Origin: a virus
Strand: one strand, 5' to 3'
DNA length: 64,000 nucleotides
Virus record (IMG/VR): IMGVR_UViG_3300050821_002957
Coordinates: 15,192-79,191 of that record
This document shows positions 21,888 to 40,328 of the stretch, in pieces (position 1 is the first letter of the stretch; every line of letters starts with the position of its first letter). A program made the translations under genes and the position numbers. The notes beneath the pieces are model-generated. The model saw only the letters and a program-made list of their open reading frames with translations. It was not told the DNA's origin and did not search any database.

Positions 21888-22508
21888 CTACGGTTTTACA
21901 AGTTCGATGAGAGCGATCTGAACTTTAAAAGATGAGGTCGCCGCCGTTGTGAGTGCCGTCAACTCAACAAGATTACTTACAGTCGAATTGAACGCACTCG
22001 TGTTACATCTGTTGTTAAACACAAAATCACTACTGCAAAATCCTGTGGAAACCGGGCCGGATGACAAAGTTTGGAAACTTCCAATGCCATTAGCTGAACT
22101 GCCAATCGATGTTACTGTGACTACAGATTCAATTTTGAACGGCGCTCCCCCAGTAAAACTATTCAACGGCAAAATTCCTGAGTCAACAATCACAGATCCG
22201 GTCAGCGTGGTAGGTCCGATTCTAAGTTTGAATTGAAAGCTATCAGTGTTGACGATGGTAATAGCTTCACCATGTGCTGTGATGCGATAGGTTGTGCCTA
22301 CTTGAAACGTATTGGCCGGAACTGTTGTTGAGAGAACTGAAATCTCCGAATTGGTAACAGTTACAGGCGTCGTGAGTGTGGCTTGACCGGGAAATGATGA
22401 AGCTGGTGTCCATTGTGAAGTGGTAGAATTCCATACCAAAGACTGTTTATTGACCGGAGCAGTTGGTGCTACTGCATTTCCTTGAAGACCAGTAATTGTA
22501 ATATCCAT
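21888..22508 (-). CDS. Thr/Ser-rich fibre-like structural protein
   Basis: 206 aa, beta-rich composition, co-oriented in the fibre block; CTAAATA motif upstream. Confidence 0.45.
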   Translation of the reverse strand: MDITITGLQGNAVAPTAPVNKQSLVWNSTTSQWTPASSFPGQATLTTPVTVTNSEISVLSTTVPANTFQVGTTYRITAHGEAITIVNTDSFQFKLRIGPTTLTGSVIVDSGILPLNSFTGGAPFKIESVVTVTSIGSSANGIGSFQTLSSGPVSTGFCSSDFVFNNRCNTSAFNSTVSNLVELTALTTAATSSFKVQIALIELVKP

Positions 22509-22533
22509 GTTTCCTCCTAAATTGCCTTAATAT

Positions 22534-23862
22534 TTAGATGTCAGTCTGAATTTGCGTGAGGCGATAAAGGTTCGTGCCGTCACAATAAAAGGCTTGAATA
22601 TTATGTTTTGATGCAGCCACGCCGACGTTCGTTCCGCCGCCGAAAACATTTCCCGGCCACGTCAGTGCATAGTTGGTTGTCGTGCCATCATGGATGAAAT
22701 CGAACACGACCATTTGTCCTGTACCGAGACCCGATAATGCAATAGTCGTTGCCGATGTAATGGTCATCTGCTGAATCGATCCGAGAGTCAAATTGAAAGT
22801 TGGCGTAGCGCTCGAAGAAACTACGTTGATGTTATGGAATACTGCGCCGATTCCTGCGTTGCCTGCGCCATCACGAAGAACAATTTCTGATGCAACTGCT
22901 GAGGGAGTTGCATTATTTGCAAGTGTGACACCATCAGCAACAACGGAGGCTCCAAGGCCACCCACTGAAACAATTATAGGATTAGGATAATTAGAACCTA
23001 AATCGCCACCTGCTCCACCGCTAGGAGAAACACCAGAAATTGCGACTGCCGATGCTGCTGTAATTCGACCCTTTGCATCTACTGTAATATGAGCTACATG
23101 AGTGGCGTCACCGTAAGTATTTGCGGTCACACCTGATGCTGAAAGAGTAGTGACCATACCAGACGAAGTGACATCACCAGTCAAATTTCCAGTGATGGTT
23201 GCTGCTGATCCATTGCAATTTCCAGTTACGTTTCCGATGAACGATGCTGTAATGACGTTCGCCGAGAAGTTACCCGAAGAATCACGTTTGACAATGGTGC
23301 TGGCGGTTGCTGAGTTTGTCGCATTGTTTGTCAACGAAGTCGCATTGGCAATGTTCGATGCCGTCTGTCCACCTACTGTGACAACTGACGGACTAGGATA
23401 GTTTGATCCAAGATCGCCTGATGCTGCACCAGCCGGAACAACACCAGCAATAGTAACCGGCGAAATCGAAGTGATCAATCCTTGAGCATTGACAGCAATT
23501 ACAGCGGATTGAGTTGCTGAACCTACTGTGCCTGCGCCCGAGGTATTGTTATTTGCCAATGAGACCGTAGTTCTGTTGTTCGGTGTGTCGTTGGATGCCG
23601 TAAATAAATTTGAAAGGTTAAGGATTGGCTGGACGGTTTGCAGTGTACCAGCGATTTCTAAACTCTGATACCCAAGACCAGAGACATCGGTTTCTACGTG
23701 AGTATGACCAACTTTGGAAAGATAATGACCACCATTTGTAGAACCATCTTGGACAGAAATCGTATACTGCGTCGTATCAATTAATAATTCGCCGTTTTGT
23801 CCTGCGTATGTAGAAAGTTGGGTGGTTGTTCCACGCCGAAATTGGAGTACTGTTGATGACAT
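22534..23862 (-). CDS. tail fibre protein (family A: FRRGTT...DT...DG.T.GG N-terminus)
   Basis: N-terminal motif shared with the proteins encoded at 23897-25558 and 42621-43043; GDLGSNYPxP and GVTANTYGDATHVAHITVDAKGRITAA fibre motifs. Confidence 0.6.
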   Translation of the reverse strand: MSSTVLQFRRGTTTQLSTYAGQNGELLIDTTQYTISVQDGSTNGGHYLSKVGHTHVETDVSGLGYQSLEIAGTLQTVQPILNLSNLFTASNDTPNNRTTVSLANNNTSGAGTVGSATQSAVIAVNAQGLITSISPVTIAGVVPAGAASGDLGSNYPSPSVVTVGGQTASNIANATSLTNNATNSATASTIVKRDSSGNFSANVITASFIGNVTGNCNGSAATITGNLTGDVTSSGMVTTLSASGVTANTYGDATHVAHITVDAKGRITAASAVAISGVSPSGGAGGDLGSNYPNPIIVSVGGLGASVVADGVTLANNATPSAVASEIVLRDGAGNAGIGAVFHNINVVSSSATPTFNLTLGSIQQMTITSATTIALSGLGTGQMVVFDFIHDGTTTNYALTWPGNVFGGGTNVGVAASKHNIQAFYCDGTNLYRLTQIQTDI

Positions 23863-23896
23863 TGTTCCTCTTCGTCAAATATATAGGCCATTCGTT

Positions 23897-25558
23897 TTAA
23901 GGAACAGTGCCCAAATCCGTGACGAATGCAAGAGTGACGTTATTCCCTGCGCCGCCATCTGTCAACGTAAGTCCAGACCCAACTGCAAGAACACGTTCGC
24001 CGGTCAAAGAACCATTCGTTGCCAAAGTCACATACTGTGCTGTTGTAGGTGCGCCACCGCCTCCACCAGATGCCGACAGAGTGATGTCTACTCGATTTGC
24101 TCCAGAATTATCAGTGATAGTTTGTGTGATTCCGCTTCCAGCGATGAAATTCAAATATGAGCGAGTGCCGACTGCCGAGCCAGCGTTCAAAATGTTTACT
24201 TGTTCATAGGTCGAATCTGGCGTCATTCCAATGGTAACGTTTCCTGCAACACCATCTCCGTTTGTGATTGAGATGCCTGTGCCGGGATTGAGAACTCTGG
24301 AAATGTACGATCCTGATCCGGTACGAACTGCAAAGCCATTTGTCACGATAGACGCAATGGACGACAAATTAGGATTTGAAACTTGGTAGACCGTATTTGT
24401 AGTGGCCGTAATGCGTCCATAAGCGTCCACAGTGAAGTTTCCATACGTTCCTGGGGTCAAACCACCGATGGTCGCTAAATCAACGCCACTGCTGCCTACA
24501 GCGATGCGGCTAGAACTTACCGTCTGGACGCTTACTGTGCTGCCAGAGACAGTAATACCATTTCCAGCGGTAACCGATCCGCCGCCACTAGAAAATGCGA
24601 CGAAGCTCAAATTCGTTGTTCCGAGAGTGATTGTTCCTGTTGTTGCCAAGACAAAACCGACATCCGCATTAACTGTACCTGAAGTAACTAGGACAAATAA
24701 TCCTGGCGAAACTTCAGCGGAACTGTTTGCATCCAACGAACGAGTCATTGGGGTGGACGCTCCGTTGAAAATGTAAATTCCGTTCGTTGTCTGATCTGTC
24801 TGATTTTTGACAAGTACTCGGTCGCCATTGTTTAGACTGACCGAATCGATTGTCGTACCAGGAGCCGTCAAATTAACATTGGCTGTCGTTGCTACTCGAC
24901 AAGCATCTTTAAACGTCAAGCCGGTTGCTGTAGCATCGACATACTCTTTTGTTGCTGCATCTGTTGCTGAAACTGGATCAGCCAAATTAATGATTTTGTG
25001 CCCATTCAAACTTACGTCTGCACTTGGTGCTGTAAGTTGATCCAATCGAGTTGACTGAACCGCAGCAGCAAATCCTGTTACCTGGGATGTTGTGATGTTT
25101 GGAATATCGCCAGCACTCAACAAAGTTGCCGATGTGACACGCCCGACCGAATTTACTGTAAGTTTGGTGTACGTGCCGCCTGTTACACCAGAAGGAGACA
25201 AGTCAATAGAAGTTCTGTTTCCTGCACCATCATCAGTGACAGAGAAATTTGCTGAGACGTTCAAAATTCCACGTTGAGTCTGTGGGGTGCCGTTAGCCTG
25301 AACCGTTTGATACTCTACCGTTCCACCAGTGATTCCGTCCAATTTTGTCTTATCTGCTGCCGACAAAAAACCTGCGGTACTGTCAGTTGCATTTGGGTGA
25401 GTATGATCAAAACGAGACATTGCCCAACCACCGGCAGTCGTTCCGTCATGGACCCGAACTACTTGGGCTGTCGTATCAACTGTGACTTCACCGACTTTTC
25501 CTGTGAAGGATGTGTGTTGAGAAGTAGTTCCTCTACGAAATTGTATTCCGATTCCCAT
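23897..25558 (-). CDS. tail fibre protein (family A)
   Basis: MGIGIQFRRGTTSQHTSFTG..GEVTVDTT...HDGTTAGG; FLSAADKTKLDGI; TPGTYGNFTVDAYGRITATT. Confidence 0.6.
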   Translation of the reverse strand: MGIGIQFRRGTTSQHTSFTGKVGEVTVDTTAQVVRVHDGTTAGGWAMSRFDHTHPNATDSTAGFLSAADKTKLDGITGGTVEYQTVQANGTPQTQRGILNVSANFSVTDDGAGNRTSIDLSPSGVTGGTYTKLTVNSVGRVTSATLLSAGDIPNITTSQVTGFAAAVQSTRLDQLTAPSADVSLNGHKIINLADPVSATDAATKEYVDATATGLTFKDACRVATTANVNLTAPGTTIDSVSLNNGDRVLVKNQTDQTTNGIYIFNGASTPMTRSLDANSSAEVSPGLFVLVTSGTVNADVGFVLATTGTITLGTTNLSFVAFSSGGGSVTAGNGITVSGSTVSVQTVSSSRIAVGSSGVDLATIGGLTPGTYGNFTVDAYGRITATTNTVYQVSNPNLSSIASIVTNGFAVRTGSGSYISRVLNPGTGISITNGDGVAGNVTIGMTPDSTYEQVNILNAGSAVGTRSYLNFIAGSGITQTITDNSGANRVDITLSASGGGGGAPTTAQYVTLATNGSLTGERVLAVGSGLTLTDGGAGNNVTLAFVTDLGTVP

Positions 25559-26535
25559 TAGCTTAAATCTCCATAATCAAGGATCAAATCAGCGCTTCCT
25601 GTAAAGCTGAATGATGTTCCATTTGTCACGAGGTAAGACAAGAAACCATCAAAACCGCCCGAGCGAACCGATGCCCCACTGATATAGTTGTAATTGGTTG
25701 CTGTTCCGAGGTACGTATTGCTGCCATTTATGGTCGCCAAGGCAATATCAAAATTTTTGTCCGTCGCAGAAGTACACGCTGTAGTTACCAAAAGACGATA
25801 CCAACCGCCACTCACCGGAACGATAGAAGCATTTGCCAAAGCACCTATTGTGCCAAGCAAACCATTTTCAATATCAAACCACGCCCAACGATGTTCTGAA
25901 CCTGCAAGATTCTGCCCGATCAACATATATTGGACAGAATTGTACTTGGCATAGACTGAGAACGTATAGGTGTTGCCGATGACCAAATTATCAGGTGTAG
26001 CAGAAACCATGTTGATTCCGCTCGAAGTTCCTTCAAGCATCTTTGTTCCTGGAGACCCATTCGGAAGAGAACCAGAAGTAGTCGGTACAGTAACACCGCT
26101 TGCCTTACTCCAATAGCTTTGAGTGAAATCCTCGCTCCATTCCAACAAATTTTCATTCGTCGCAAATCCAGTGAAATTCGCCTGTGTCAAAAATGAGCCG
26201 ACACTTTCAATTTCCGCCGATACTTGGTTGTGTTGATATGAAAGAATATAGCCGAAGACATTGGTTGCGCTAGTATGAGACGCTGCGGTCGATCCAGCGA
26301 ATCCACGGACACAACTAGTGAAGTTATTGCTGGACGTGCTTTGTGCCAGAATGATTTCACTGTCGATCACAATAAGACAAGGTGTGTTGAAACTAGCCAC
26401 CGATGTTACACCAATGGTCGTGTCACCTGTTCCGATATTTGCAGTAAGCGTTGTTTCGGCATTGTCGCTGGCAACGCTCAGAATGGTGTCATTCGGGACC
26501 ACGTAAGGGAATGCAGGAGTATTTGGATTAGACAT
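25558..26535 (-). CDS. tail fibre protein (family E N-terminal domain shared with 39267-40328)
   Basis: PCLIVIDSEIILAQS...CVRGFAGSTAASH...GYILSYQHNQV parallels CLVQIDTEIILVGS...CTRGYNLTSPTSH...GYVLAYHHNQI. Confidence 0.55.
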   Translation of the reverse strand: MSNPNTPAFPYVVPNDTILSVASDNAETTLTANIGTGDTTIGVTSVASFNTPCLIVIDSEIILAQSTSSNNFTSCVRGFAGSTAASHTSATNVFGYILSYQHNQVSAEIESVGSFLTQANFTGFATNENLLEWSEDFTQSYWSKASGVTVPTTSGSLPNGSPGTKMLEGTSSGINMVSATPDNLVIGNTYTFSVYAKYNSVQYMLIGQNLAGSEHRWAWFDIENGLLGTIGALANASIVPVSGGWYRLLVTTACTSATDKNFDIALATINGSNTYLGTATNYNYISGASVRSGGFDGFLSYLVTNGTSFSFTGSADLILDYGDLS

Positions 26536-26557
26536 ATGCGTTTGTATTTAGTACACT

Positions 26558-29362
26558 CTACAGGAAGTAATGCGGGTTGTTAATCATGCTTCCAACTGTT
26601 CCGTCAAATCCAGGTTTCACTAGCATTTCTATCGCAATTTGGTTGACACCAGCCGGGGTGATAGCGGCATTATTCAGTGTCGCAAGAGCAACTTCTTGAA
26701 TTGCAGCGTCAGAATTACCATTTCCTAGACCTTCAATGGCGACTGATTCTAATCTTGAGTTTCCGCCGTTCGTGTACAATTCTTCGATTGCTACCTGGGC
26801 AACCACTGCGTTCGGATGTCCAGAACAAACTGAAGCGATAGCAACTTGTTGAATATATGCAGAAGAAAATTCGACTAATTGGTTCAGAGTCAAAACTTCC
26901 ATTGTGATTTGGGTTGTCAGACCACTCGGATCGCCTGGACCTTGTAACATTTCCAAGGTTGCCTGAGTCATTAAGACGAACGCTTTGATCGAATAAATTG
27001 CTTCAATAGCAACTTGATCAAGCAAAGCCTCTCCTCCATCGCCACCACCTAGACCTTCGATTGCGGCCTGTTGAATTGCAGCCAGATTTGCCAGATATAA
27101 TACTTCTTCTACAACTTGAGTGTTTCGACAGTGTGAAGTGGGAATCCACAACATTTCATAGTTGATTGCCGTAACTCTGACATTTGGATTTCCGGTCGCC
27201 AACACTTCCATCACTTCTTGTGTCAACAAAGCGTGTGTAAGGATCGAGAAAGTGACATAATCGTTGATCTCTTCTCCGAGAACACCATCTCCACCGATAG
27301 CCGCAATTCCACTGTTAGTAAACCCAACACTATTGCTGATCTGAGTGTTGTTAAGCGCTTCTCCAACGAACAATGGTAGCAAATCCCATTCTGCTCTTGT
27401 ATTGTCTTCGAGTGGTTGGTTGAGAGCCGTTTCCATACTTCGATTAAATCCGAAGACATATTCGACATCGATACAACCAAGATAATTTGGACCACCTGCA
27501 CTGCTAGATGTTGTACCAGACATTGTAAAACTGCCACTGAAGATCGAAGCAAAATCAGGAGATCCAAAGAGTGTCTGATTAGCAATGATACCGAACAAAT
27601 AATCTGGACCGAGCAAGAAATTTGTGTTGGCAAGAGATACGTCAGATGCAGCCGGGAAAGTAACGCCATCTGCAAAGATAAACGAGCCAACACAATTTAA
27701 TTCCGAATCTGGTAAGAAAATTACAGTTCCAAATTGATCTGTCGAGGTCGAAATAAAGACGGACGTGTTGCCATTGCAAGTAAACGTAGCATTGACTTGT
27801 CGAAACGGCGTGATAGCAACTGTGGTTTCTCCATTGCAAGTGATGAATCCACTTTGATTGAGATTCACTTTGCCTGTAAGAGTGCTGACGCCGATCAAAT
27901 TTGCTGTAACGAAGTGAACACCTGTAATGCTTGACTGACCATTGATCGATTGGGTCGTCGAATTTTGAATGACACCAATTCCCAAGATGGTTTGGATAGT
28001 AAGCAGTCCAACACTTGTCTGACCGGAAATGGTTTGTATGGTAGAATTTTGAATATCACCAGCACCAGTGATCGTCTTAGTCGTATCATTTTGAAGATCA
28101 GATTGGCCGGTGATCGTCTGGACTGTAAGTGTACCGATGTCAGATTGACCAGTGATCGTCTTGGTCGTATTATTTTCAAGATCAGCCGCACCAGGAATGG
28201 TCTGTATCGTATTTTTTGCAACACACGACTCACCATTGATCGTTTGTGTGGTGAGATTACCTACGTTTGCCTGACCAGTGATCGTATGTGTCGTTGTGGT
28301 TATGATGTCGCCAGCACCCAGAATAGTCTGTAGAGTATTGGCTTTGATATCCGATGTACCTTGAATGGTCGATACAAAGATGCCACCGATGTCCGAATAA
28401 CCTTGAATGGTTTGCGTGGTCGTCTTTTGAATATCCGACTGACCAGTAAGCGTCTTAGTCGTCGTTACGGCAATGACGCTCTGACCAGTAAGTGTCTTGG
28501 TTGTGAGACTTCCAATGCTTGTTTGACCAGTGAGCGTCTTAGTCGTCGTGATCTGAATGCTACCCTGACCAGTGATAGTCTGGGTGCGAGTGGACTGAAT
28601 GTCACCTTGTCCAGTAATTGTCTTGGTTGTGAGGCTTCCGATGCTTGATTGACCAAGAATGGTTTTGGTTGTCGAAAGTTGAATGTCCGACTGACCAGTA
28701 ATAGTCTGAGTTGTGGTTATACCGCCCGTCGAAGGCTGATAAAAGAATAATGTTTTCTTAAGAACCAGACCATCACTGGCGTTGCCGATGATGGTATGAC
28801 GAAAAAGATCAGCAAAGTGACCATACCCTCCTCTTGAAGTTGCCGAGGAAATGGTAAAAACAACTGATGCATCAACGGGGGTCCAGGTATCAGTTAGAAC
28901 TGGACTATTCGGAGTCGGAGTTTGTCCGCTATATTGAGTCTCACTTGCTATCGTTACTTTACTGTACGTGTCGGTATTGAGATTAACGACTTCTTTGCGA
29001 GGAAGAGGAGCAGTTTCGGTTACGTCATATTGAATCGGATGACGAAAAAGATCAGCAAAGTGACCATATCCTCCTCTCGATTCTGCTGAAGAAATGGTAA
29101 AGATGACAGATGAACTGACAGGAGGCCAAGTGTCATCTAAAAAAGTTGGATTGAGAGTTCCGTGAAGGATTGAACCAGCACCAGAAAGTGTCTGGACAGT
29201 ATTTGCAGCGATATCGGACTGACCCGTAATCGTCGATGTAAATGTGCCAAGAAGATACGACTGGCCATTGATGCTCTTAGAAGTGAGTGTGCTTCCGCCG
29301 CTCGTACTTCCTAGTTGAGCACCACCTAACTGTAAATTTCCTAATTGCGATTGTTGGGGCAT
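26558..29362 (-). CDS. large repeat-containing fibre protein (934 aa) with three distinct internal repeat types
   Basis: About 20 copies of a 13-aa repeat (T.TITGQSDI...); a duplicated ~50-aa segment (...SRGGYGHFADLFRH...); about seven C-terminal (Q/S)VAIE.L repeats. Confidence 0.6.
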   Translation of the reverse strand: MPQQSQLGNLQLGGAQLGSTSGGSTLTSKSINGQSYLLGTFTSTITGQSDIAANTVQTLSGAGSILHGTLNPTFLDDTWPPVSSSVIFTISSAESRGGYGHFADLFRHPIQYDVTETAPLPRKEVVNLNTDTYSKVTIASETQYSGQTPTPNSPVLTDTWTPVDASVVFTISSATSRGGYGHFADLFRHTIIGNASDGLVLKKTLFFYQPSTGGITTTQTITGQSDIQLSTTKTILGQSSIGSLTTKTITGQGDIQSTRTQTITGQGSIQITTTKTLTGQTSIGSLTTKTLTGQSVIAVTTTKTLTGQSDIQKTTTQTIQGYSDIGGIFVSTIQGTSDIKANTLQTILGAGDIITTTTHTITGQANVGNLTTQTINGESCVAKNTIQTIPGAADLENNTTKTITGQSDIGTLTVQTITGQSDLQNDTTKTITGAGDIQNSTIQTISGQTSVGLLTIQTILGIGVIQNSTTQSINGQSSITGVHFVTANLIGVSTLTGKVNLNQSGFITCNGETTVAITPFRQVNATFTCNGNTSVFISTSTDQFGTVIFLPDSELNCVGSFIFADGVTFPAASDVSLANTNFLLGPDYLFGIIANQTLFGSPDFASIFSGSFTMSGTTSSSAGGPNYLGCIDVEYVFGFNRSMETALNQPLEDNTRAEWDLLPLFVGEALNNTQISNSVGFTNSGIAAIGGDGVLGEEINDYVTFSILTHALLTQEVMEVLATGNPNVRVTAINYEMLWIPTSHCRNTQVVEEVLYLANLAAIQQAAIEGLGGGDGGEALLDQVAIEAIYSIKAFVLMTQATLEMLQGPGDPSGLTTQITMEVLTLNQLVEFSSAYIQQVAIASVCSGHPNAVVAQVAIEELYTNGGNSRLESVAIEGLGNGNSDAAIQEVALATLNNAAITPAGVNQIAIEMLVKPGFDGTVGSMINNPHYFL
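27900..28720. repeat. tandem coding repeats of ~39 nt period inside the 934-aa fibre gene
   Basis: Recurring gaccagtgatcgtct(t/g)g... units visible in the DNA; they generate the spurious overlapping ORFs 27950-28333 and 28361-28648. Confidence 0.55.
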
Positions 29363-29460
29363 ATTTTTAGCCCCGTTACATCAAAGACCGAATTGAGGCA
29401 ATGTAGGACACGTTGAATATTTATCCTGCACTGGGTTACCTGCAAACTTTCTCAAAACGG

Positions 29461-30723: not shown

Positions 30724-30731
30724 AATTTTAT

Positions 30732-32867: not shown

Positions 32868-32909
32868 GTTTTTGTAAACTCCTATGTAAAATACACTCTC
32901 TGCGGCTAT

Positions 32910-33971
32910 TTAGGAAAACGGTTCCCAATAGTTGGTCGGTGTGGTTCCGGTTTCGACTTCAAGCGAAAGAAGTTCGGCGAACATCGTTAAGCTGCTCCAT
33001 TCACCCAAATAGACTCCCATGTGAGTAGGGCGATTCGGGAGAAAGTCCGTCTGTGAGTAAGCGTTATCGGCTGGCCACATGGAACCATCGCCTGAGATTG
33101 CAAGGTAAATGTCGCTATTGTGATACCCAAGCGCAAGATAATGAGGTACGCCGTTGTTGAACCCTTGGATACTAGCACCTCGACCCGTCGAATACTTCGT
33201 AGTGCTGAGATTTTGTGTGGTGATATCGTTCCAGTAGTAGTAATTCACGGTGCCGTTTGTGTCGGTGTTCCAGCAGACCGCCTTGCCCGATGCGGCGTCA
33301 TAGAGGTAGATACCAAATCTAGAGGTGCCCGCCGCTGAGTGAGACGACCGACGAAGGTACAATCTTGCTCTGAAGTCGCCGCTGCCTGGAAGATTGCTTG
33401 ATGGCGGGTGGAAGAAGGCATCGCCGTTATTAGTTCCGCCGTTGCCAAGACGGGTCACACCGCCTAGACTTGTGTACACATGGAAGTCACTACCGCTTGT
33501 CTTGTACAGCGTGTAAGTCGAACCATTAACAGGCGTACACAGGTGACCGAATGCGTAAGCGTCCCAAGACGTACCGTTGAAATAGTACTCGTAGGGGCTG
33601 GCATCGGTCGCTTTGTAGCGGTCACCTGTGTACGCAACCGTCGTAGAAGGCAGGTTGGCGTAGGTGCCTGTCTGGTTCTGATTCGCACGAATTGTTGTAA
33701 TGGCACCAGCCGTCAAAACAGCACCTACGGCTGTACCACTAGTATGAGTTGCTGCGGTGGTAGATTCGTAACCACGAGTGACCGTCCAAGTTGTTCCTGA
33801 AACTGCCGTTACTAACATGATCTCGTTATCGATTTTGATTCGGAAATTTCCTGTTGTAGGATAGCCAGTCGATGTGTTTACACTGATACTCGTGGACGAT
33901 GTTGAGGTAATCGCCGAGGCAAGGTAATTACTGATATTGAAATCGTTGCAATATTGTTCTGAAAGTGCCAT
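32910..33971 (-). CDS. fibre-like protein
   Basis: 353-aa beta-rich ORF in the fibre block. Confidence 0.5.
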   Translation of the reverse strand: MALSEQYCNDFNISNYLASAITSTSSTSISVNTSTGYPTTGNFRIKIDNEIMLVTAVSGTTWTVTRGYESTTAATHTSGTAVGAVLTAGAITTIRANQNQTGTYANLPSTTVAYTGDRYKATDASPYEYYFNGTSWDAYAFGHLCTPVNGSTYTLYKTSGSDFHVYTSLGGVTRLGNGGTNNGDAFFHPPSSNLPGSGDFRARLYLRRSSHSAAGTSRFGIYLYDAASGKAVCWNTDTNGTVNYYYWNDITTQNLSTTKYSTGRGASIQGFNNGVPHYLALGYHNSDIYLAISGDGSMWPADNAYSQTDFLPNRPTHMGVYLGEWSSLTMFAELLSLEVETGTTPTNYWEPFS

Positions 33972-33975
33972 TTGC

Positions 33976-34374
33976 TTATGTCAATTGAACTGTGAGATTA
34001 CCAGACAAAATTTTAACTTCTTCTGTAGCGTTAACTGTGATGCTTGAATTCAGCGCTCCATAATACAGAAGATTGCCAGTGGTCAAAGCATCCCATATGC
34101 TTATATAGGCAACAGTTCCCCAACCTGCTGGTGTTGCTCCACCCCAAACAATTAAAGCATTTGTGCTGATCGAACCACCAGAGACAGAAGCCCATGAGAT
34201 GGCTTGCCGAGCGTATGCGTTACCACTGATCTCGTTTGCAAGAGCCGTAGACGTAGACGCAGTTGGATTCGTCGCATGAAGTCCAGCGTAGACTGTTGTC
34301 GGTGGAGTGTACGCTGAATTGTTGAGCGTCCCATTCAACAGGGCGTTCTGTAAGTAAGTGCTGAATGCTCCCAT
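33976..34374 (-). CDS. small fibre-associated protein (family C, copy 1 of 3 tandem paralogues)
   Basis: Shared pattern L.AtnPtas....E.sg..Y.RQ.I.....G.....n.....G.....WG.V...I.DA.T.GNLL.YG.L. Confidence 0.5.
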   Translation of the reverse strand: MGAFSTYLQNALLNGTLNNSAYTPPTTVYAGLHATNPTASTSTALANEISGNAYARQAISWASVSGGSISTNALIVWGGATPAGWGTVAYISIWDALTTGNLLYYGALNSSITVNATEEVKILSGNLTVQLT

Positions 34375-34800
34375 TTAACTCTCTGTCAGCACTAAACCAG
34401 CATTTGGGATTCGGAATCCATCACCTGTATTAATAGTCTTTGCTACCGTAAGTGTGCCGAAATACAAAATGTATCCTCCGGTCGAAGCTGACATGATGGC
34501 TCCTGCTACTACCGTTCCCCAATTTCCCGTTGCCGTTCCAAAATCAATGAGATTCTGATTTGATTTGACCCCGGCTGTTGTGACAGTCCAATTTTGTGTA
34601 TAAGGTGTTCCCAAGTCGTTGGAAATTGCTTGACGAGTATACCCGGTTCCTGACGTGCTTACCTCTGTTCCACCGCCTGTCCAAGTTGGTGCTGCGGTGT
34701 ACAGTGCCACGTAGACGGTTGTGAGCCGAGTATAACTTGGACCACCGAGTACATGATCCAAAATGTCGTCTGCGAGTGTCTGTCCTTTACCTGATGCCAT
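34375..34800 (-). CDS. small fibre-associated protein (family C, copy 2)
   Basis: Tandem paralogue. Confidence 0.5.
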   Translation of the reverse strand: MASGKGQTLADDILDHVLGGPSYTRLTTVYVALYTAAPTWTGGGTEVSTSGTGYTRQAISNDLGTPYTQNWTVTTAGVKSNQNLIDFGTATGNWGTVVAGAIMSASTGGYILYFGTLTVAKTINTGDGFRIPNAGLVLTES

Positions 34801-34814
34801 CTTATGGTATATAG

Positions 34815-35201
34815 CTACGAAACTGTAGCCGTGACGTTTCCGGTCAAAAATTTCAATACGTCACCAGCACCCACGTATTGAGGCGAAACCAAAGGTCCAA
34901 AGAACAACAAATTACCGCCTGTCGATGCATCTAGAATTGCTGCATAAACCACGTTGCCCCAGACACTCCCAGCGTAAGGGAAGGCAATATCCGTAGTGTT
35001 TGAGACGCTGCCGCCTGAGGGCGTACCAAATATGATTGGCTGGCGTACATAACTGACACCACTGATTTCTGTTCCGGTATCTGAAGCCGTAGGATTGGTC
35101 AAATAAAGAGCGAGAAACCAACTTGTAGGTAATGTAAACGAAGCATCGGTCAACAATGCGCCAATGACCTTGTTCGCTGTGGTCGTTCCAAGTGCTGCCA
35201 T
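34815..35201 (-). CDS. small fibre-associated protein (family C, copy 3)
   Basis: Tandem paralogue. Confidence 0.5.
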   Translation of the reverse strand: MAALGTTTANKVIGALLTDASFTLPTSWFLALYLTNPTASDTGTEISGVSYVRQPIIFGTPSGGSVSNTTDIAFPYAGSVWGNVVYAAILDASTGGNLLFFGPLVSPQYVGAGDVLKFLTGNVTATVS

Positions 35202-36106
35202 TATGCGCTCACATGGAAAAGCGTTCCTCTCATTGATGCTGGGAGAGTAACGTTTCCGTTATTGTTATTTGTTAAACTATAGTAAGTATGCGAATCGACC
35301 AAAGAAGTTGTGTCTGCTGGATACGATTCAGTTGCAATGAACGAATCCCAAAGTTGTCCAGTGAGTTTTCCTTCATTATCGATAGTCGGAGCACCCCATG
35401 CAATTAGCGGTTCGACTATCAACGCTGAATCGTCAACCCAACGGTATCCTGTAATCACATGAGTAGCCGTCGATTGAAAACAAACCAATGATGGAAGACC
35501 GGGGTGAGTTGAACTGTCTGCTGCGATTGCATTATACTCTACCGCTGTGCTATTGATGATCGACCATCCTTGTGAAGGTGCATACCCAACCAAACCTCGT
35601 GCATTTAATGATGTTCTAAAACTTCCTACCGTGTTACTTGTATCCGTATCAGACTGACCATCGCCCATAATGAATGCAGCGGTTGTCACTCCAAAGGTCA
35701 CCAAGTTTGGCGGAAGATAGACGGCGCTCGCCATACAAAAATTTCGACTTGAAACCGATCCCGGAACAAAAATCACAAATTGATACTTGTCTGCGATGAT
35801 ACGATAATTCGCACTCGATGATGGATACAAAAAACAACCAACCGATTGGCTGAGTGTTTGTGTTGTATTCATCATACGAAGGCAAATACTCTGTGTACTG
35901 CCACCTGGATCAAAAACTCGTACCTTGATCTGATTGCTCTGAGGCGTAAGAGCACTTTGATAGATTTTGTCTACGGAACTGTTGGTCGTCGTGATGCTCC
36001 AACCGGCTCCTGTAATTGCCGAATCAATCGCTGCGAATAATGATGCCTTATCCACAACGGTAGTAAGTGTGTTGACGAGTGTGCCGCCTGCGTATTGAAT
36101 TGCCAT
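35201..36106 (-). CDS. fibre-like protein sharing the family D C-terminal domain
   Basis: GQLWDSFIATESYPADTT...SMRGTLFHVSA parallels GQLWNAFVSNDGYPCETT...GARGTLFVTIT. Confidence 0.5.
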   Translation of the reverse strand: MAIQYAGGTLVNTLTTVVDKASLFAAIDSAITGAGWSITTTNSSVDKIYQSALTPQSNQIKVRVFDPGGSTQSICLRMMNTTQTLSQSVGCFLYPSSSANYRIIADKYQFVIFVPGSVSSRNFCMASAVYLPPNLVTFGVTTAAFIMGDGQSDTDTSNTVGSFRTSLNARGLVGYAPSQGWSIINSTAVEYNAIAADSSTHPGLPSLVCFQSTATHVITGYRWVDDSALIVEPLIAWGAPTIDNEGKLTGQLWDSFIATESYPADTTSLVDSHTYYSLTNNNNGNVTLPASMRGTLFHVSA

Positions 36107-36107
36107 G

Positions 36108-37187
36108 TTAGCTTGTAATCTCTATTCCAAATTCTGCGTCGTTCAAATCCACCAATGCCCACGGAGCCGATGTCGCAGGATTGTACTCCCAGATGTCTCC
36201 CATGTACGTGTATGAAGAGTAACAAACAAAATCTGGACCTTGATAATTGGTAGATCCTAATCTTAGCAAGGGACAGACGCTTCGGCTTCCCGTATTGTCC
36301 CGTCTCACTGACATGTGTTCTTGAACTGCAAAAATATTGCCAGTGATAGCAAAAGGAGTGATCGAATAAAGATCGATTGCACCCACGTTTCCATTGTAAT
36401 TATATAGTCCAGTCTCTACGTAGTTCGTCACACCATCGACGTTCAAAGCATTGACAGAGCCAGTAGAACGTAAGAAATCATTTTCGTATCCATCTGCATC
36501 AGGATAGTTCGTCTGGACTCTGACCTCTCCTAAGAAAGTCGTGTGTCTTAGACCATCGTTAGGGTCGATCATGTAAAAATCATCGACAATCACGGATGGT
36601 CCAAGTCCACCCATTTGAGACAAGTGAAAAATATTCCAAGTTGGATTGCTACTCTGTTGTGTTGTGATGCCGCCGACATTGCATAAAGTTGCTCCATCGA
36701 CACGAATTTCTACGCTGCCAGGACTACCGACTGTAATTGCAATTTCGATATAAAACCACAATGTCAAAGGAGGGACAAATGTGGTTGTTGCTAGAATCGT
36801 ATCTGTAATTTGATCGCCATAGCCGGTCCTAACTTCGATCACATAAGTTGTAGGGTTAACCCACACCGAACACTGAATTGTTTCTACTGATGACTGAAAG
36901 TCACCCAAAAACATAAATGGCTCAGTGATGCCGCTATTGAAACCCTGAAAAGAATTAATCAAAACCGCAAATCCTACGATCACACCGGCACGGCTTGACG
37001 TAAATTGTTTATGAAGTCCATTCTGGATACCTTCGGTCGTACCAGTGCTTGAACCAAGAGACACACAACCACCGCCCCATCTTCCCACACCACCGTTTAT
37101 GGCATTCGTCGCTTGATCCCATAGACGACCACCAGGACCATAGACGTTTTGTGTGAAATCGAACCCATCAAAGAAAATTATGCTCAT
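36108..37187 (-). CDS. fibre/receptor-binding-like protein (family B, copy 1 of 3)
   Basis: MSIIFFDGFDF... N-terminus and a conserved C-terminus ...W.LVDLN.A.FGI.ITS shared by the three copies. Confidence 0.5.
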   Translation of the reverse strand: MSIIFFDGFDFTQNVYGPGGRLWDQATNAINGGVGRWGGGCVSLGSSTGTTEGIQNGLHKQFTSSRAGVIVGFAVLINSFQGFNSGITEPFMFLGDFQSSVETIQCSVWVNPTTYVIEVRTGYGDQITDTILATTTFVPPLTLWFYIEIAITVGSPGSVEIRVDGATLCNVGGITTQQSSNPTWNIFHLSQMGGLGPSVIVDDFYMIDPNDGLRHTTFLGEVRVQTNYPDADGYENDFLRSTGSVNALNVDGVTNYVETGLYNYNGNVGAIDLYSITPFAITGNIFAVQEHMSVRRDNTGSRSVCPLLRLGSTNYQGPDFVCYSSYTYMGDIWEYNPATSAPWALVDLNDAEFGIEITS

Positions 37188-37189
37188 AC

Positions 37190-38236
37190 TTAACTGGTGA
37201 TATCAATTCCAAATTGTGCTATGTTCAAATCCACCAAGTCCCACGGTACGTTGCCATTTGGATTGTTCTCCCAAATTTTTCCCGCCCAAGTATAAGTCGA
37301 ATAACATGGCACCGATGTACCTTGGTAGTTGGTCGAGGCAGTTCTGAGCAACGGAGCAATTTGTCGATTACCTACGTCGTCTTTTCGGAATGACAAATTC
37401 TCTTGAACCGCAAAAATGGTTCCTGAAATCGTAAAATTTCCAATTGAATAGAGATCAACTGCGCCAACCGTGCCGCTATAGTTGTAGACACCGTGCTCTG
37501 CATAATCAGTCGGAGTTGTGTTGACATTGGCCGAATTGTTAGTGCCAACCGAAGGAAAGAAATCATTTTCAAAACCATCGGCATCTGGGTATTGCGTCTG
37601 TACTCTGACTTCTCCCAAAAAATCTACATTATTCGTTGCGTCTGTTGTATCGATGATGTAAAGATCGTCAATCGAAATATTAGTGCTAAAGGATTGAAGC
37701 GAACTGAGGGCAATCTTGTTTGTAGAGGCATTGGTGCTTTTTTGGGTTTGTACGCCGGTCACCGTAATCTGTGGCGTTCCAGCTACGTTAATTTGAAAGC
37801 TGCCGGGATTTCCAATTTGCATCTTTACTTCGATATAAAACCATAGAGTAAGAGGCGGAACGAAACCTGAATCACCAAGTGTCGAATCACCGAGATTTTG
37901 TCCTAACTCCTGACGTACTGTGATTGTGTTCGTTGTGGGATCAACCCAAAGCGAACACTGTGGAGTTGTACCATCAAAGAAAGCAAGAAATGGCTTGTTA
38001 ATTCCACTGAAATTTGCTACATTCATTGCGAAACCAACAATCACTTCACTTGAGCTAGTAAAAGTTTTGGTTGTCGGAGAATAACCGCCAGTTACACCAC
38101 CACTAGGCAACAAGCCTTGACCTCCAAAACGCCCACCTGTGACAAGACCGCCCGAACCTTGATCCCACTTGCGGCCACCAGGACCAAAACCAGCACTATT
38201 GTAAAAATCGAAACCATCAAAAAAGATAATTGACAT
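37190..38236 (-). CDS. fibre/receptor-binding-like protein (family B, copy 2)
   Basis: Tandem paralogue. Confidence 0.5.
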   Translation of the reverse strand: MSIIFFDGFDFYNSAGFGPGGRKWDQGSGGLVTGGRFGGQGLLPSGGVTGGYSPTTKTFTSSSEVIVGFAMNVANFSGINKPFLAFFDGTTPQCSLWVDPTTNTITVRQELGQNLGDSTLGDSGFVPPLTLWFYIEVKMQIGNPGSFQINVAGTPQITVTGVQTQKSTNASTNKIALSSLQSFSTNISIDDLYIIDTTDATNNVDFLGEVRVQTQYPDADGFENDFFPSVGTNNSANVNTTPTDYAEHGVYNYSGTVGAVDLYSIGNFTISGTIFAVQENLSFRKDDVGNRQIAPLLRTASTNYQGTSVPCYSTYTWAGKIWENNPNGNVPWDLVDLNIAQFGIDITS

Positions 38237-38239
38237 TGA

Positions 38240-39265
38240 TCACCCCACGATCTTAATTCCGGCGAAGCTGGCGTTCAACTCAGTGTTGGTCCATGTTCCC
38301 GCTGTGTTGGGATTTTGCTGCCATAATGTTTGTGCAACGCTATATTGACTTAAACAGGTCACTGAGCTACCCAAATATGTCGTGCTACCTGTATTAATAA
38401 GCGGAGCGATGACACGAGAACCTACGTCATCCTTTCTTTGTGTACAGTTTACCTGGACACCATAAATTGTTCCTGTTAGTGCCAGGGTTCCCATCGTATA
38501 GTTGTCGATGTTACCAACTACTGCCGAACGGATATAAGTTGCATCGTCATCGGCTACTGGACTATCATCGACAGCTTGATAGTTGCTCCCTGCTCCAAAG
38601 GCAGTAAAATCATTCTCATTACCGTTTGCTGTAGGATACTGCGTCTGGATTCGACATTCACCCAAGAAATCTGTATTGAACGATCCTGTGTCATTTAGAA
38701 CGTACAGATCATCGATCATGAATTCAAAAGCGCCACTACTACCGAACGGTTGAAGGCGAATCGAATTGACATAATTGTTGCCAGTGTATTTTGTGTTGAG
38801 ACCTGTGGCGTTTAAATAAGTTGAACCATTGAGGCGAATCTGAACGTAGCCACTGGAATTATTAATGAACACTTTGATTTCCATATAGTTCCAGAAACCA
38901 AACGTAAATAGACCAGGAAGGCTCGTCGCAATGGTTGTACCGTTTCTTGTGACCTGAAAACCGGCATCACTAGTCACTCGAACATCTACTTGCGTAATCG
39001 GACTACTTGGACTGCCTGTTCCATCACCAAAAACGATAATAGGATTCGTCGGATCACCATATGCCAACGAAAAAGCTACACCCAAAACCACAGTCGATGA
39101 ATTAGCGATTGGTGTGGCAAGATACCCAGGTTGATTGTTCCAACCATATCCCATTCCACCAAAACGTCCAGGCACAATGCTAAGACCATTTTGGTAATAA
39201 GGCCAGACACGCTGGACTTGTGATTGATTATAGTAATCGAATCCTGTCATGAATAGAAGAGACAT
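38240..39265 (-). CDS. fibre/receptor-binding-like protein (family B, copy 3, most divergent)
   Basis: Tandem paralogue. Confidence 0.5.
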   Translation of the reverse strand: MSLLFMTGFDYYNQSQVQRVWPYYQNGLSIVPGRFGGMGYGWNNQPGYLATPIANSSTVVLGVAFSLAYGDPTNPIIVFGDGTGSPSSPITQVDVRVTSDAGFQVTRNGTTIATSLPGLFTFGFWNYMEIKVFINNSSGYVQIRLNGSTYLNATGLNTKYTGNNYVNSIRLQPFGSSGAFEFMIDDLYVLNDTGSFNTDFLGECRIQTQYPTANGNENDFTAFGAGSNYQAVDDSPVADDDATYIRSAVVGNIDNYTMGTLALTGTIYGVQVNCTQRKDDVGSRVIAPLINTGSTTYLGSSVTCLSQYSVAQTLWQQNPNTAGTWTNTELNASFAGIKIVG

Positions 39266-39266
39266 G

Positions 39267-40328
39267 TTAGCTCCCTAATGCAAAGTCACGATGAATGTTA
39301 AATTTGATCGAAATCATCTCTGCATCGGCGGCAGCAGTATCGCCTGCACTTCTTGCAAATTTGAAGAAAAATTCATCACCCGGCTGCAAACTACCCAAGA
39401 ACAACGGAGTGATACGACTCTTTACAATTGTGTCTGCTACACCAGGGACCGTAGTCGTAATTGAGGCGATGCTACCAAATGTAAAATCGTCAGTGCTTCC
39501 CGGCGAAATATATCCAGTCTGGCATTGCCATGTGACTGTTCCTGTCGTTGCTGCTGTGCGCCAATAAATGTCGAGTGATACTGTATCTCCTACCCAGTCA
39601 TCCGGCCAATAAAAGTGATCTTGAACCCAATAGTTGTTTCCAGCCGTGAAAGCAGCGACCGCATAAATTTCACCGTTCGTGCCTGTATAAGGAACAGCGT
39701 TCGGGGCATTTGTCAGACCAAAAGAGAAACCTAGAACTGCATTGGACCCCTGAAAGATTGCACCCTTGTAAAAGACCGGATAGTTAATGTTGCCAGTCGC
39801 AGGCTCAATGCTAGTGATTCGACCAGTGGCATCTACGGTGATTGTATCGAATCGATTGAATCCACCATAGGTTCCGGCTGTGACTCCGTTCGGCTTCAGA
39901 TACAAATTGGAAAACAATCCGCCGATGGTCGATCCACCTGCCTGATCGTTCTGCATGACAACGTTTCCAAAGTTCGCACCAAGACCAGCTTCAATCGCTT
40001 TGATTTCTGCGGCGATTTGATTGTGATGATAGGCCAACACGTAGCCCTTTACCGGAGCGTTTTGACCGTGGCTTGTGGGAGAAGTAAGATTATAACCACG
40101 AGTGCAACTCATCATGACGTTGCCAGAAATAGATCCTACAAGAATAATTTCGGTGTCAATCTGGACAAGACATGGAGCATTGTACTTCGTGCCATCGACA
40201 ACAGTAAACTGTGTCTGGGAGCCATCAATCGAGAACGTCAGATAACTAAGCGCACGATTAGCTGCGACAGTCAAGTTAATATCAGCGGCAACACCAGCAG
40301 GGAAAATTGGATTTTGTGGATTTGGCAT
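39267..40328 (-). CDS. tail fibre protein (family E N-terminus), immediately downstream of the small terminase gene
   Basis: N-terminal domain shared with the protein encoded at 25558-26535; GVTAGTYGGFNRFDTITVDATGRITSIE fibre motif. Confidence 0.55.
   Translation of the reverse strand: MPNPQNPIFPAGVAADINLTVAANRALSYLTFSIDGSQTQFTVVDGTKYNAPCLVQIDTEIILVGSISGNVMMSCTRGYNLTSPTSHGQNAPVKGYVLAYHHNQIAAEIKAIEAGLGANFGNVVMQNDQAGGSTIGGLFSNLYLKPNGVTAGTYGGFNRFDTITVDATGRITSIEPATGNINYPVFYKGAIFQGSNAVLGFSFGLTNAPNAVPYTGTNGEIYAVAAFTAGNNYWVQDHFYWPDDWVGDTVSLDIYWRTAATTGTVTWQCQTGYISPGSTDDFTFGSIASITTTVPGVADTIVKSRITPLFLGSLQPGDEFFFKFARSAGDTAAADAEMISIKFNIHRDFALGS

What the first reader, a model, noticed from the sequence alone, without database searches (positions are those of the whole stretch)
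21888..40328. ~18.5 kb cassette of about 20 fibre-like genes inserted between the small and large terminase genes
In T4 and its relatives gp16 and gp17 are adjacent and translationally coupled. Here the gp16-like gene (40331-40828) is followed by a dense, co-oriented run of tail-fibre-like genes before gp17 (20124-21803). The run carries shared fibre motifs (FRRGTT..DT..DG.T.GG N-termini, HTHP...GF(L/M)S..DKTKL, GVT.GTYG....ITVD..GRIT). This is an unusual place for the presumptive host-range arsenal and implies a large, mosaic repertoire of receptor-binding proteins.
Basis: partly seen in the sequence, partly recalled or inferred. Interest (0 to 1): 0.8.

Follow-up and report, generated by a model that had tools for sequence, protein, structure and literature searches.

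The report
Fibre-gene island splitting the terminase genes
In this very large, uncultivated T4-like phage the two DNA-packaging genes lie 18.5 kb apart, separated by 18 tightly packed late genes that mostly look like host-binding fibre and sugar-binding proteins; the layout is shared by a whole clade of related phages and extends a variable site already known in T4-like cyanophages.

Summary
ORF 40331-40828 is a gp16-type small terminase and ORF 20124-21803 is a T4-type large terminase. Between them lie 18 co-oriented ORFs (not about 20), 98.6% coding.

The three quoted motifs occur in only three cassette genes, plus one gene outside the cassette. Other evidence still points to adhesin or fibre functions for most of the rest:
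- three GP4 fiber-I/whisker (Gp80) paralogues;
- three paralogues with the fold of the phage JBD30 fibre-arm proteins;
- three ConA-like lectin/lyase-fold paralogues;
- three proteins sharing one N-terminal anchor module;
- a 934-aa repeat protein.

A CTAAATA motif, probably the late promoter, precedes five cassette genes and TerL.

"Inserted" is true only relative to T4. The order TerS, then cassette, is conserved in at least 15 uncultivated relatives, some with TerS only 29% identical. The one relative with adjacent TerS and TerL is nested among cassette bearers in a TerL tree, which suggests secondary loss.

The gp16-gp17 junction is already a published hyperplastic site in cyanomyoviruses. 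Here it is about four times larger than any gap I measured and holds structural rather than metabolic genes.

Verdict: a real feature and a new variant of a known kind, of moderate interest. No virion data exist. The source contig is 405,631 bp.

The parts
20124..21803 (-). gp17-type large terminase (TerL)
   Evidence: Pfam Terminase_6N 7.2e-27 and Terminase_6C 1.1e-8; phrog_2 1.7e-63. About 50% identical to cyanomyovirus gp17.
21831..21837 (-). CTAAATA late-promoter-like motif 27 nt upstream of TerL
   Evidence: The motif has 21 hits against 4.7 expected, 19 of them on the minus strand.
21888..22508 (-). 206-aa ORF of unknown function, not found in the relatives examined
   Evidence: No PHROG or Pfam hit. 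No tblastn hit in any related locus. It has its own CTAAATA motif at 22531-22537.
22534..23862 (-). Mtd_N fibre protein (442 aa)
   Evidence: Pfam Mtd_N 3.7e-10. Paralogue of 23897-25558. Conserved just upstream of TerL in L008, L009 and L093.
23897..25558 (-). Mtd_N fibre protein (553 aa)
   Evidence: Pfam Mtd_N 9.2e-15. Residues 2-133 match Bordetella phage Mtd in the PDB at 2.3e-10. The central domain matches phrog_2647 and tail-fibre PHROGs.
25558..26535 (-). 325-aa protein with the shared N-terminal anchor module and a possible carbohydrate-binding domain
   Evidence: N-terminal 120 aa are 42% identical to 39267-40328. Weak CBM_4_9 hit at 0.0057. CTAAATA motif at 26545-26551.
26558..29362 (-). 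934-aa repeat protein with about 10-19 copies of a 14-aa (42-nt) unit; the C-terminal third is conserved in relatives
   Evidence: Repeat families D3 and D4 and the TRF 42-nt period. Relatives share residues about 590-934 but have different N-terminal parts, including Laminin_G_3. No hit in GenBank phages.
29461..30723 (-). family C paralogue (420 aa), JBD30 fibre-arm fold
   Evidence: 50% identical to 30732-31940 and 30% to 35201-36106. CTAAATA motif at 30729-30735.
30732..31940 (-). family C paralogue (402 aa)
   Evidence: Paralogy. Orthologues in L102-L105.
31940..32335 (-). 131-aa ORF of unknown function
   Evidence: No family hit. No homologue in the related loci.
32337..32867 (-). 176-aa S/T-rich ORF of unknown function
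   Evidence: No family hit. CTAAATA motif at 32907-32913.
32910..33971 (-). 353-aa protein with the shared N-terminal anchor module
   Evidence: PHROG tail and tail-fibre families hit residues 10-124. Similar to 25558-26535.
33976..35201 (-). three tandem Gp80 (GP4 fiber-I / whisker) paralogues: 33976-34374, 34375-34800, 34815-35201
   Evidence: PF23140 at 1.7e-35, 1.4e-34 and 2.3e-34, against a cut-off of 27 bits. PDB 8jou_a at 4.4e-6.
35201..36106 (-). family C protein (301 aa)
36108..39265 (-). three tandem phrog_2448 paralogues (36108-37187, 37190-38236, 38240-39265), ConA-like lectin/lyase fold
39267..40328 (-). 353-aa modular fibre protein (N-terminal anchor, shaft repeat, C-terminal tip); the best conserved cassette gene
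   Evidence: Mean column identity is 67% over 10 orthologues. In 1,887 protein clusters the three modules recur independently: at N-termini, as up to 35 matched stretches per protein, and at C-termini. No GenBank phage hit.
40345..40351 (-). CTAAATA late-promoter-like motif inside the 3' end of TerS, 16 nt upstream of 39267-40328
   Evidence: The same position is occupied in L093, L095, L096 and L074.
40331..40828 (-). gp16-type small terminase (TerS)
   Evidence: phrog_445 6.6e-25; PDB 9oox_A 1.6e-4; 39-40% identical to cyanophage gp16.
40831..43043 (-). five small late ORFs between gp15 and TerS: 42621-43043 (Mtd_N, 140 aa), 42254-42598, 41798-42247, 41301-41813, 40831-41304
   Evidence: Mtd_N 1.1e-5. 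Paralogy among three of them. Conserved in all close relatives. CTAAATA motif at 43057-43063. The start of the last ORF was corrected to 41304 from the alignments to relatives.
43060..44846 (-). gp15 (43060-44112) and gp14 (44112-44846), the neck genes that bound the island
   Evidence: phrog_227 1.2e-63 and phrog_460 2.8e-57.

Best explanation
The region is a late-expressed island of accessory adhesin and fibre genes. It occupies the gp15-gp17 interval of a clade of very large T4-like phages, and the small-terminase gene sits inside it.

Shown:
- TerS and TerL are genuine and lie 18.5 kb apart.
- The 18 intervening genes form five paralogue families plus single genes.
- Many match, by sequence or predicted fold, proteins that form fibres, whiskers or glycan-binding modules on other phages.
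- The gene order is conserved across many relatives, while the middle of the cassette varies.
- A CTAAATA motif stands 5-50 nt upstream of most late genes. It precedes five cassette genes (39267, 32337, 29461, 25558, 21888) and TerL.

Inferred mechanism:
- The motif is this clade's version of the T4 late promoter TATAAATA.
- TerS would be transcribed with the five small ORFs from the motif at 43057. The cassette would be transcribed as five late units. TerL would use its own motif at 21831, so the two terminase subunits need not be adjacent.
- The products would assemble on the virion as several kinds of appendage. Mtd-type trimeric fibres are one kind. Arms polymerised from family C paralogues, as in JBD30 gp47/gp48, are a second. 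Gp80 dimers, as in GP4 fiber I or the Bas63 neck whiskers, are a third.
- Lectin-fold proteins, and three proteins sharing one N-terminal anchor (39267, 25558, 32910), would dock alternative tips to a common site.
- Duplication and module exchange in the cassette would then diversify host recognition.
For: - TerS and TerL identity.
- Dense co-oriented packing at 98.6% coding.
- Paralogue families.
- Mtd_N domains and a PDB Mtd match.
- PF23140 Gp80 in three copies and PDB 8jou. The role of GP4 Fiber-1 and the Bas63 whiskers is described in PMC12609058.
- phrog_2448 family: ConA-like lectin/lyase fold and a position in the tail-fibre region of Chi-like phages and phage Lucius.
- 39267 has the anchor, shaft-repeat and tip module architecture.
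- Composition typical of fibres: S+T+G+N is 41% against 27% in core genes, and K+E is 3.6% against 11.8%.
- CTAAATA: 21 hits against 4.7 expected, 19 on the coding strand, most 5-50 nt from a start codon. It is conserved at equivalent sites in relatives.
- Conserved order in L003-L006, L072, L074, L077, L093, L095-L098 and L102-L105. Cassette content varies among these loci.
Against: - There are no virion proteomics, transcription data or images for this phage or any relative.
- PHROG labels for two families read 'head protein' and 'head decoration'.
- Family C resembles the JBD30 proteins only in fold (10-11% identity). My assignment of chains 8rk3_c and 8rk3_S to gp47 and gp48 is inferred from their lengths and mutual similarity.
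- Three small ORFs and the five ORFs upstream of TerS have no functional evidence.
- The promoter role of CTAAATA is inferred from enrichment and position alone.
- Where on the virion any of these proteins sits is unknown.
Confidence: 0.7

Rival explanations
1. The cassette mainly encodes capsid decoration or head fibres rather than tail or neck adhesins.
For: phrog_240, which matches the three Gp80 paralogues, is labelled 'head protein', and phrog_2647, which matches 23897-25558, is labelled 'head decoration'. The central domain of 23897-25558 matches a cyanophage PSS2 protein annotated as capsid decoration protein. GP4 Fiber-1 fibres point up towards the capsid (PMC12609058).
Against: The solved reference for PF23140 is a tail- or neck-mounted fibre in GP4 and a neck whisker in Bas63. 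Mtd is a tail-fibre tip. The family C fold matches baseplate arms. phrog_2448 homologues follow tail genes in siphophages. PHROG labels are transferred annotations, not tested functions.
Confidence: 0.12
2. The cassette is a recent horizontally acquired insertion, specific to this genome, that happened to land between gp16 and gp17, for example through homing-endonuclease activity.
For: A relative, L007, with TerL 74% identical has gp14-gp15-TerS-TerL contiguous, with a 74-nt gap. Endonuclease genes are present nearby: 19615-20127 in the window, and Endonuclease_7, GIY-YIG and HNH genes in L095. The cassette families have homologues scattered over unrelated podo-, sipho- and myophages. GC3 is somewhat lower in the cassette, 0.39 against 0.48.
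Against: The order TerS, 39267-like, phrog_2448, family C, Gp80 ... 26558-like, 25558-like, 23897-like recurs in at least 15 loci, down to 29% TerS identity. L007 is sister to cassette-bearing L008 and lies inside a cassette-bearing clade in a TerL tree. G+C is 0.44-0.48 inside and outside the cassette. Synonymous codon fractions correlate at r=0.85 with core genes. The same late-promoter-like motif is used inside and outside the cassette.
Confidence: 0.1
3. The genes are not virion components. They would be late non-structural proteins such as secreted lectins or depolymerases, assembly chaperones or exclusion factors.
For: There is no direct evidence of incorporation into the virion. The lectin/lyase fold also occurs in free enzymes. 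Several ORFs have no homologues at all.
Against: The closest solved or annotated relatives of four families are virion proteins. The genes sit inside the late structural block. The anchor, shaft and tip modularity is typical of fibres.
Confidence: 0.06

Closest known systems
Hyperplastic gp16-gp17 region of T4-like cyanomyoviruses (Millard et al. 2009, as cited in Sullivan et al. 2010, PMC3037559)
   Same: It is the same junction in the same conserved late module, gp13-14-15-16 | 17-18-19-20. It is likewise variable between relatives. ACG-2014d has 10 genes (4.5 kb) there, and L049 has 8.2 kb between gp15 and gp17.
   Different: Here the TerS-TerL interval is 18.5 kb, and 21.2 kb from gp15 to gp17. 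It holds structural adhesin or fibre paralogues instead of small host-like or metabolic genes (petE, denV, endonucleases). Its gene order is conserved over deep divergence.
Phage JBD30 tail-fibre-forming proteins gp47/gp48 (PDB 8rk3; PMC11445458)
   Different: Identity is only 10-11%. The host virion is a T4-like myophage, not a siphophage. Heterodimer formation, arm polymerisation and pilus binding are untested. Two paralogues carry an extra N-terminal extension of about 110 aa.
Podophage GP4 fiber I protein gp80 and the Bas63 neck whisker (Pfam PF23140; PDB 8jou; PMC12609058)
   Same: Three tandem genes are full-length PF23140 members scoring well above the cut-off.
   Different: No rope or collar partner was identified here. 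There are three diverged paralogues (35-40% identity) rather than a single gene.
Bordetella phage BPP-1 major tropism determinant Mtd
   Same: The N-terminal roughly 130 residues of 23897-25558, and the Mtd_N domain of 22534-23862 and 42621-43043, match Mtd.
   Different: No match to the C-terminal (variable) part of Mtd was found. No template/variable repeat pair was found in the window, so there is no evidence of a diversity-generating retroelement.
phrog_2448 proteins in the tail-fibre region of Chi-like siphophages
   Same: Same family (E down to 2.5e-42 against the PHROG profile). They also occur as tandem genes of about 330-340 aa, just after the tail protein and a DUF2793 fibre gene in phage Siskin.
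   Different: About 25% identity. The genomic setting differs: terminase interval against distal tail module.

Membership tests
T4 gp16-type small terminase | Sequence match to small-terminase family models | tested here: met
   phrog_445 6.6e-25 and phrog_735 2.3e-12; PDB 9oox_A 'Small terminase protein' 1.6e-4; 39-40% identity to annotated cyanophage gp16.
T4 gp16-type small terminase | Match to Pfam PF11053 (DNA_Packaging) | tested here: inconclusive
   The window protein has no hit at E<=0.1. The small-terminase genes at the same position in L097 and L098 do carry PF11053.
T4 gp16-type small terminase | Position in the late module between gp15 and gp17, and a size of about 165 aa | tested here: met
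   165 aa. Order gp14, gp15, five ORFs, TerS, cassette, TerL, gp18.
T4 gp16-type small terminase | Ring oligomer that stimulates the TerL ATPase | not testable with these tools
   This needs biochemistry.
T4-type large terminase | Terminase_6N ATPase domain plus Terminase_6C nuclease domain | tested here: met
   7.2e-27 and 1.1e-8, both above the curated cut-offs.
Cyanomyovirus gp16-gp17 hyperplastic region | Variable gene content at the gp16-gp17 junction of a T4-like late module | tested here: met
   Content differs between the window, L093, L095, L096 and L102-L105. The hot spot is described in PMC3037559.
Cyanomyovirus gp16-gp17 hyperplastic region | Content dominated by small host-like or metabolic genes | tested here: not met
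   No metabolic gene is present. Most of the cassette matches fibre, adhesin or lectin families.
Mtd / DGR-diversified receptor-binding protein | Mtd_N domain | tested here: met
   22534-23862, 23897-25558 and 42621-43043.
Mtd / DGR-diversified receptor-binding protein | Template and variable repeat pair | tested here: not met
   No near-identical repeat pair of that kind was found in the 64-kb window. A reverse transcriptase was not specifically searched for, and the rest of the 405-kb genome was not seen.
Pfam PF23140 Gp80 (GP4 fiber I) | Full-length match above the gathering score | tested here: met
   122.6, 119.7 and 118.9 bits against a cut-off of 27.
Pfam PF23140 Gp80 (GP4 fiber I) | Partner rope and collar proteins that mount the dimers on the neck | not tested
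JBD30 gp47/gp48 fibre-forming proteins | Shared fold | tested here: met
JBD30 gp47/gp48 fibre-forming proteins | Detectable sequence homology | tested here: not met
JBD30 gp47/gp48 fibre-forming proteins | Two paralogues forming heterodimers that stack into an arm | tested here: inconclusive
   Three paralogues exist and two are adjacent. No complex was modelled.
ConA-like lectin/glucanase superfamily | Beta-jelly-roll fold | tested here: met
ConA-like lectin/glucanase superfamily | Catalytic or sugar-binding residues | not tested
   No residue-level comparison was done.

The most novel reading that the evidence does not exclude
TerS and the cassette form an old co-inherited block that persists down to 29% TerS identity. 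The block would encode a complete second adhesion apparatus of non-T4 type, built from parts otherwise known from siphophages and podophages: JBD30-type arms, GP4-type fiber I or whiskers, lectin tips and Mtd fibres. It may be mounted at the neck, next to gp13-gp15. This would give a clade of roughly 370-405 kb T4-like phages a multivalent host-recognition system, with its genes kept next to a packaging gene for a functional reason.
Probability: 0.2. Interest if true: 0.7.

Novelty: new variant of a known kind. Interest (0 to 1): 0.5.

Why it matters
The result shows that the conserved T4 late module can hold, and keep for a long time, a large structural gene island at a junction so far known only for small accessory genes. 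It also shows that the two terminase genes need not be neighbours.

It points to a set of candidate receptor-binding proteins in an uncultivated clade of unusually large T4-like phages. These include the first JBD30-arm-like and GP4-fiber-I-like genes I could find in a T4-like genome.

For host prediction and phage engineering, the variable part of the cassette is the obvious place to look for host-range determinants.

Tried and rejected
- **Near-identical DNA in GenBank phages:** none for the whole cassette. tblastn of 39267, 26558 and family C found nothing, so no cultured reference exists.
- **Diversity-generating retroelement, suggested by Mtd_N:** no template/variable repeat pair in the window. 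Rejected for this window.
- **T4 late promoter TATAAATA:** absent. The related CTAAATA is enriched instead.
- **Sigma-70 promoter and terminator scans:** at or below the shuffled expectation, so uninformative.
- **Assembly artefact:** rejected. The same order occurs on an independent Logan contig and in many relatives.
- **Does the cassette sit elsewhere in the 166-kb contig of L007?** Pattern scans with the phrog_2448 and 39267 alignments did not return that contig. This suggests absence but does not prove it.
- **PDB sequence searches for phrog_2448, family C and 39267:** nothing useful.
- **Literature search on Chi-phage structures:** not pursued.
- **tRNA scan:** no tRNA genes.

Full report
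**1. What is in the sequence**

The window carries a T4-like late module on the minus strand. The genes, in transcription order:

| Gene | Coordinates | Evidence |
|---|---|---|
| gp13 | 58751-59494 | |
| gp14 | 44112-44846 | |
| gp15 | 43060-44112 | |
| five small ORFs | 40831-43043 | |
| TerS | 40331-40828 | |
| 18 cassette ORFs | 21888-40328 | |
| TerL | 20124-21803 | |
| endonuclease VII/HNH-like gene | 19615-20127 | |
| gp18 sheath | 17178-19562 | |
| gp19 tube | 16580-17128 | |
| gp20 portal | 14089-15939 | |
| prohead protease | 9287-10015 | |
| gp22 scaffold | 7131-8696 | |
| gp23 major head protein | 5730-7109 | |

TerS is supported by phrog_445 at E=6.6e-25, by a PDB small terminase (9oox_A, E=1.6e-4), and by 39-40% identity to annotated cyanophage gp16. 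It does not reach Pfam PF11053, although the small-terminase genes at the same position in two relatives do.

TerL has Terminase_6N and Terminase_6C. It is about 50% identical to the nearest GenBank phages, which are cyanomyoviruses.

The cassette has 18 ORFs, is 98.6% coding, and has gaps of -1 to 98 nt.

**2. Is the separation unusual?**

In 19 other T4-like loci where both genes could be located, the TerS-TerL gap was 7-4491 bp, and under 100 bp in 13 of them. The largest gp15-gp17 interval I saw elsewhere was 8.2 kb, in L049. One caveat: flanks were capped at 10 kb, so larger gaps in those loci could not have been seen.

The junction is nevertheless a published hot spot. Sullivan et al. 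[quoted passage not shown] Synechococcus phage ACG-2014d has ten genes there, including petE, denV and an endonuclease.

So the site is known to be plastic. What differs here is the size, about four times larger, and the content.

**3. What the cassette encodes**

All-against-all BLASTP gives five paralogue families.

- **(a) Mtd_N fibres.** These are 22534-23862 and 23897-25558, plus the 140-aa 42621-43043 outside the cassette. Residues 2-133 of 23897-25558 match the Bordetella phage tropism determinant in the PDB at 2.3e-10.
- **(b) A shared N-terminal module of about 120 aa.** It occurs in 39267-40328, 25558-26535 and 32910-33971, and hits tail, tail-fibre and baseplate PHROGs. An exhaustive HMMER search with 39267 found 1,887 protein clusters, and its three parts recur independently in them. 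Residues 1 to about 125 recur at the N-termini of proteins of 119 to over 1,200 aa. The roughly 40-aa GVTxGTYG...ITVDxxGRIT unit gives up to 35 matched stretches in one 2,474-aa protein. Residues about 175-348 recur at C-termini. That is the anchor, shaft and tip layout of phage fibres.
- **(d) Three tandem Gp80 genes, 33976-35201.** They match PF23140 at about 120 bits and PDB 8jou. This is the GP4 'Fiber-1' protein, whose closest structural relatives include the neck whiskers of Bas63 (PMC12609058).

The remaining genes are as follows.
- A 934-aa protein (26558-29362) contains about 10-19 copies of a 14-aa repeat.
- Three small ORFs (21888, 31940, 32337) have no homologues at all.

The cassette proteins have 41% S+T+G+N and 3.6% K+E. 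Core structural genes have 27% and 11.8%. This composition is typical of fibres.

The label 'fibre-like' is therefore reasonable for most of the run.

**4. Expression signal**

The T4 late promoter TATAAATA is absent. CTAAATA occurs 21 times against 4.7 expected, with none of 100 shuffles reaching 21. Nineteen copies are on the minus strand.

About 16 of those lie 5-50 nt upstream of a probable start codon. The genes preceded this way are gp14, 42621, 39267, 32337, 29461, 25558, 21888, TerL, gp18, gp19, portal, 13254, 56348 and, with corrected starts, gp22, gp23 and the next gene downstream.

The motif is conserved at equivalent sites in relatives, including upstream of TerS, gp18, gp19 and portal in L007.

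I infer that it is the clade's late promoter. On that reading:
- TerS is transcribed with the five small ORFs from the motif at 43057.
- The cassette forms five late units.
- TerL has its own promoter, so the two terminase genes need not be adjacent.

**5. Relatives**

- **Order at the TerS end is conserved.** The order gp14, gp15, Mtd_N ORF, small ORFs, TerS, 39267-like, phrog_2448 (two or three copies), family C, Gp80 recurs in IMG/VR loci L003-L006, L072, L074 and L077. It also recurs on ENA and JGI contigs of 370, 400 and 375 kb: L093, L095 and L096.
- **The TerL end is conserved too.** The order 26558-like, 25558-like, 23897-like, 22534-like, TerL is seen in L008, L009 and L093.
- **The order persists in deeper relatives.** L097, L098 and L102-L105 have TerS only 29-40% identical and keep the same order through 25558-like or 23897-like.
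- **The middle of the cassette varies.** L093 lacks recognisable Gp80 genes and has a Laminin_G_3 protein. L095 has PA14 and extra family C and phrog_2448 copies. L096 has three 32910-like genes and a DUF2341/Laminin_G_3 giant.
- **TerS can sit at a different place in the island.** In L106 and L107 some cassette genes lie upstream of TerS, which is then about 1.2 kb from TerL.
- **One relative lacks the island.** L007, on a 166.6-kb contig, has gp14-gp15-TerS-TerL contiguous. Scans with two cassette families did not return that contig.
- **That absence looks secondary.** In a neighbour-joining TerL tree, L007 is sister to cassette-bearing L008, inside a clade with the window and L009. Loss is the more parsimonious reading, with the caveat that this is a single-gene tree.
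- **No sign of recent acquisition.** G+C does not differ across the boundaries, and synonymous codon fractions correlate with core genes at r=0.85.

The cassette is therefore an old, lineage-defining feature and not a recent insertion.

**6. Wider context**

The window's TerL, TerS, 39267 and 35201 proteins all sit on a contig of 405,631 bp. Relatives sit on contigs of 370-400 kb.

The late module is expanded in several places:
- gp13 lies 14 kb from gp14, with a plus-strand block in between.
- About 4 kb separates portal from protease.

The terminase split is the largest of several such expansions in what appears to be a very large T4-like genome.

**7. Verdict**

- **Observation:** confirmed.
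- **Interpretation:** partly supported. The genes are structural and fibre-like, and the repertoire is mosaic. The junction, however, is a known plastic site, the arrangement is ancestral to a clade, and TerS is embedded in a 21-kb gp15-gp17 island.
- **Mechanism (inferred):** late-expressed accessory appendages of several architectures that diversify by duplication and module exchange.
- **Novelty:** a new variant of a known kind.
- **Interest:** moderate.
- **Main gap:** the complete absence of virion or expression data.

Noticed in passing
whole window (source contig): The window's own TerL, TerS and two cassette proteins are recorded on a contig of 405,631 bp. Close relatives sit on contigs of 370,131, 374,748 and 399,930 bp. 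This suggests a clade of T4-like phages far larger than the roughly 250-kb maximum I recall for cultured T4-like phages.
   Followed up: partly
window, 21 sites, e.g. 44853-44859, 43057-43063, 21831-21837, 19612-19618, 17151-17157, 15949-15955: CTAAATA is about 4.5-fold enriched, almost exclusively on the late-gene strand, and lies 5-50 nt upstream of start codons. It is conserved in relatives. It is probably the clade's late promoter, replacing T4's TATAAATA, which is absent.
   Followed up: partly
L093 18464-20793; L106 6881-10200; L107 9163-12252; L068: In several relatives the TerL reading frame is split into two to four tblastn pieces separated by 0.4-1.4 kb. In L093 the intervening stretch holds a 308-aa ORF. 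This suggests introns, inteins or homing-endonuclease insertions in TerL. The window's TerL is uninterrupted.
   Followed up: no
window 11418-13217 (-): A 599-aa protein between the portal and prohead-protease genes has a stretch of about 200 residues that is almost pure Asp/Glu, a Gln/Gly/Pro-rich region and a basic C-terminus. It has no family hit, and its N-terminus is conserved in L007 and L008. It may be an internal or scaffold-like protein.
   Followed up: no
window 44864-53183 (+) and 53897-58099 (-): gp13 (58751-59494) is separated from gp14 by about 14 kb. The interval holds a plus-strand block with an RNA 2'-phosphotransferase and a Ku-like protein, two large unknown genes of 816 and 583 aa, and a GIY-YIG homing endonuclease at 58133-58723.
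   Followed up: no
window 19615-20127 (-) and 13254-13721 (-): Two paralogous endonuclease VII/HNH-like genes (phrog_3322). The first overlaps the 3' end of TerL by 4 nt, the position where Sullivan et al. 2010 describe an endonuclease insertion at the 3' end of gp17 in cyanophages.
   Followed up: no
window 17178-19562 (-): The tail sheath is 794 aa. It has a central insertion rich in T/G/A/V repeats (residues about 290-480) that matches Ig-like regions of virion structural protein PHROGs.
   Followed up: no
window 40831-41424 (-): The mechanical ORF starts at a GTG and overlaps the upstream gene by 124 nt. Alignments to relatives begin near residue 40, so the real start is probably the ATG at 41304, giving a 4-nt ATGA overlap with 41301-41813.
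   Followed up: yes
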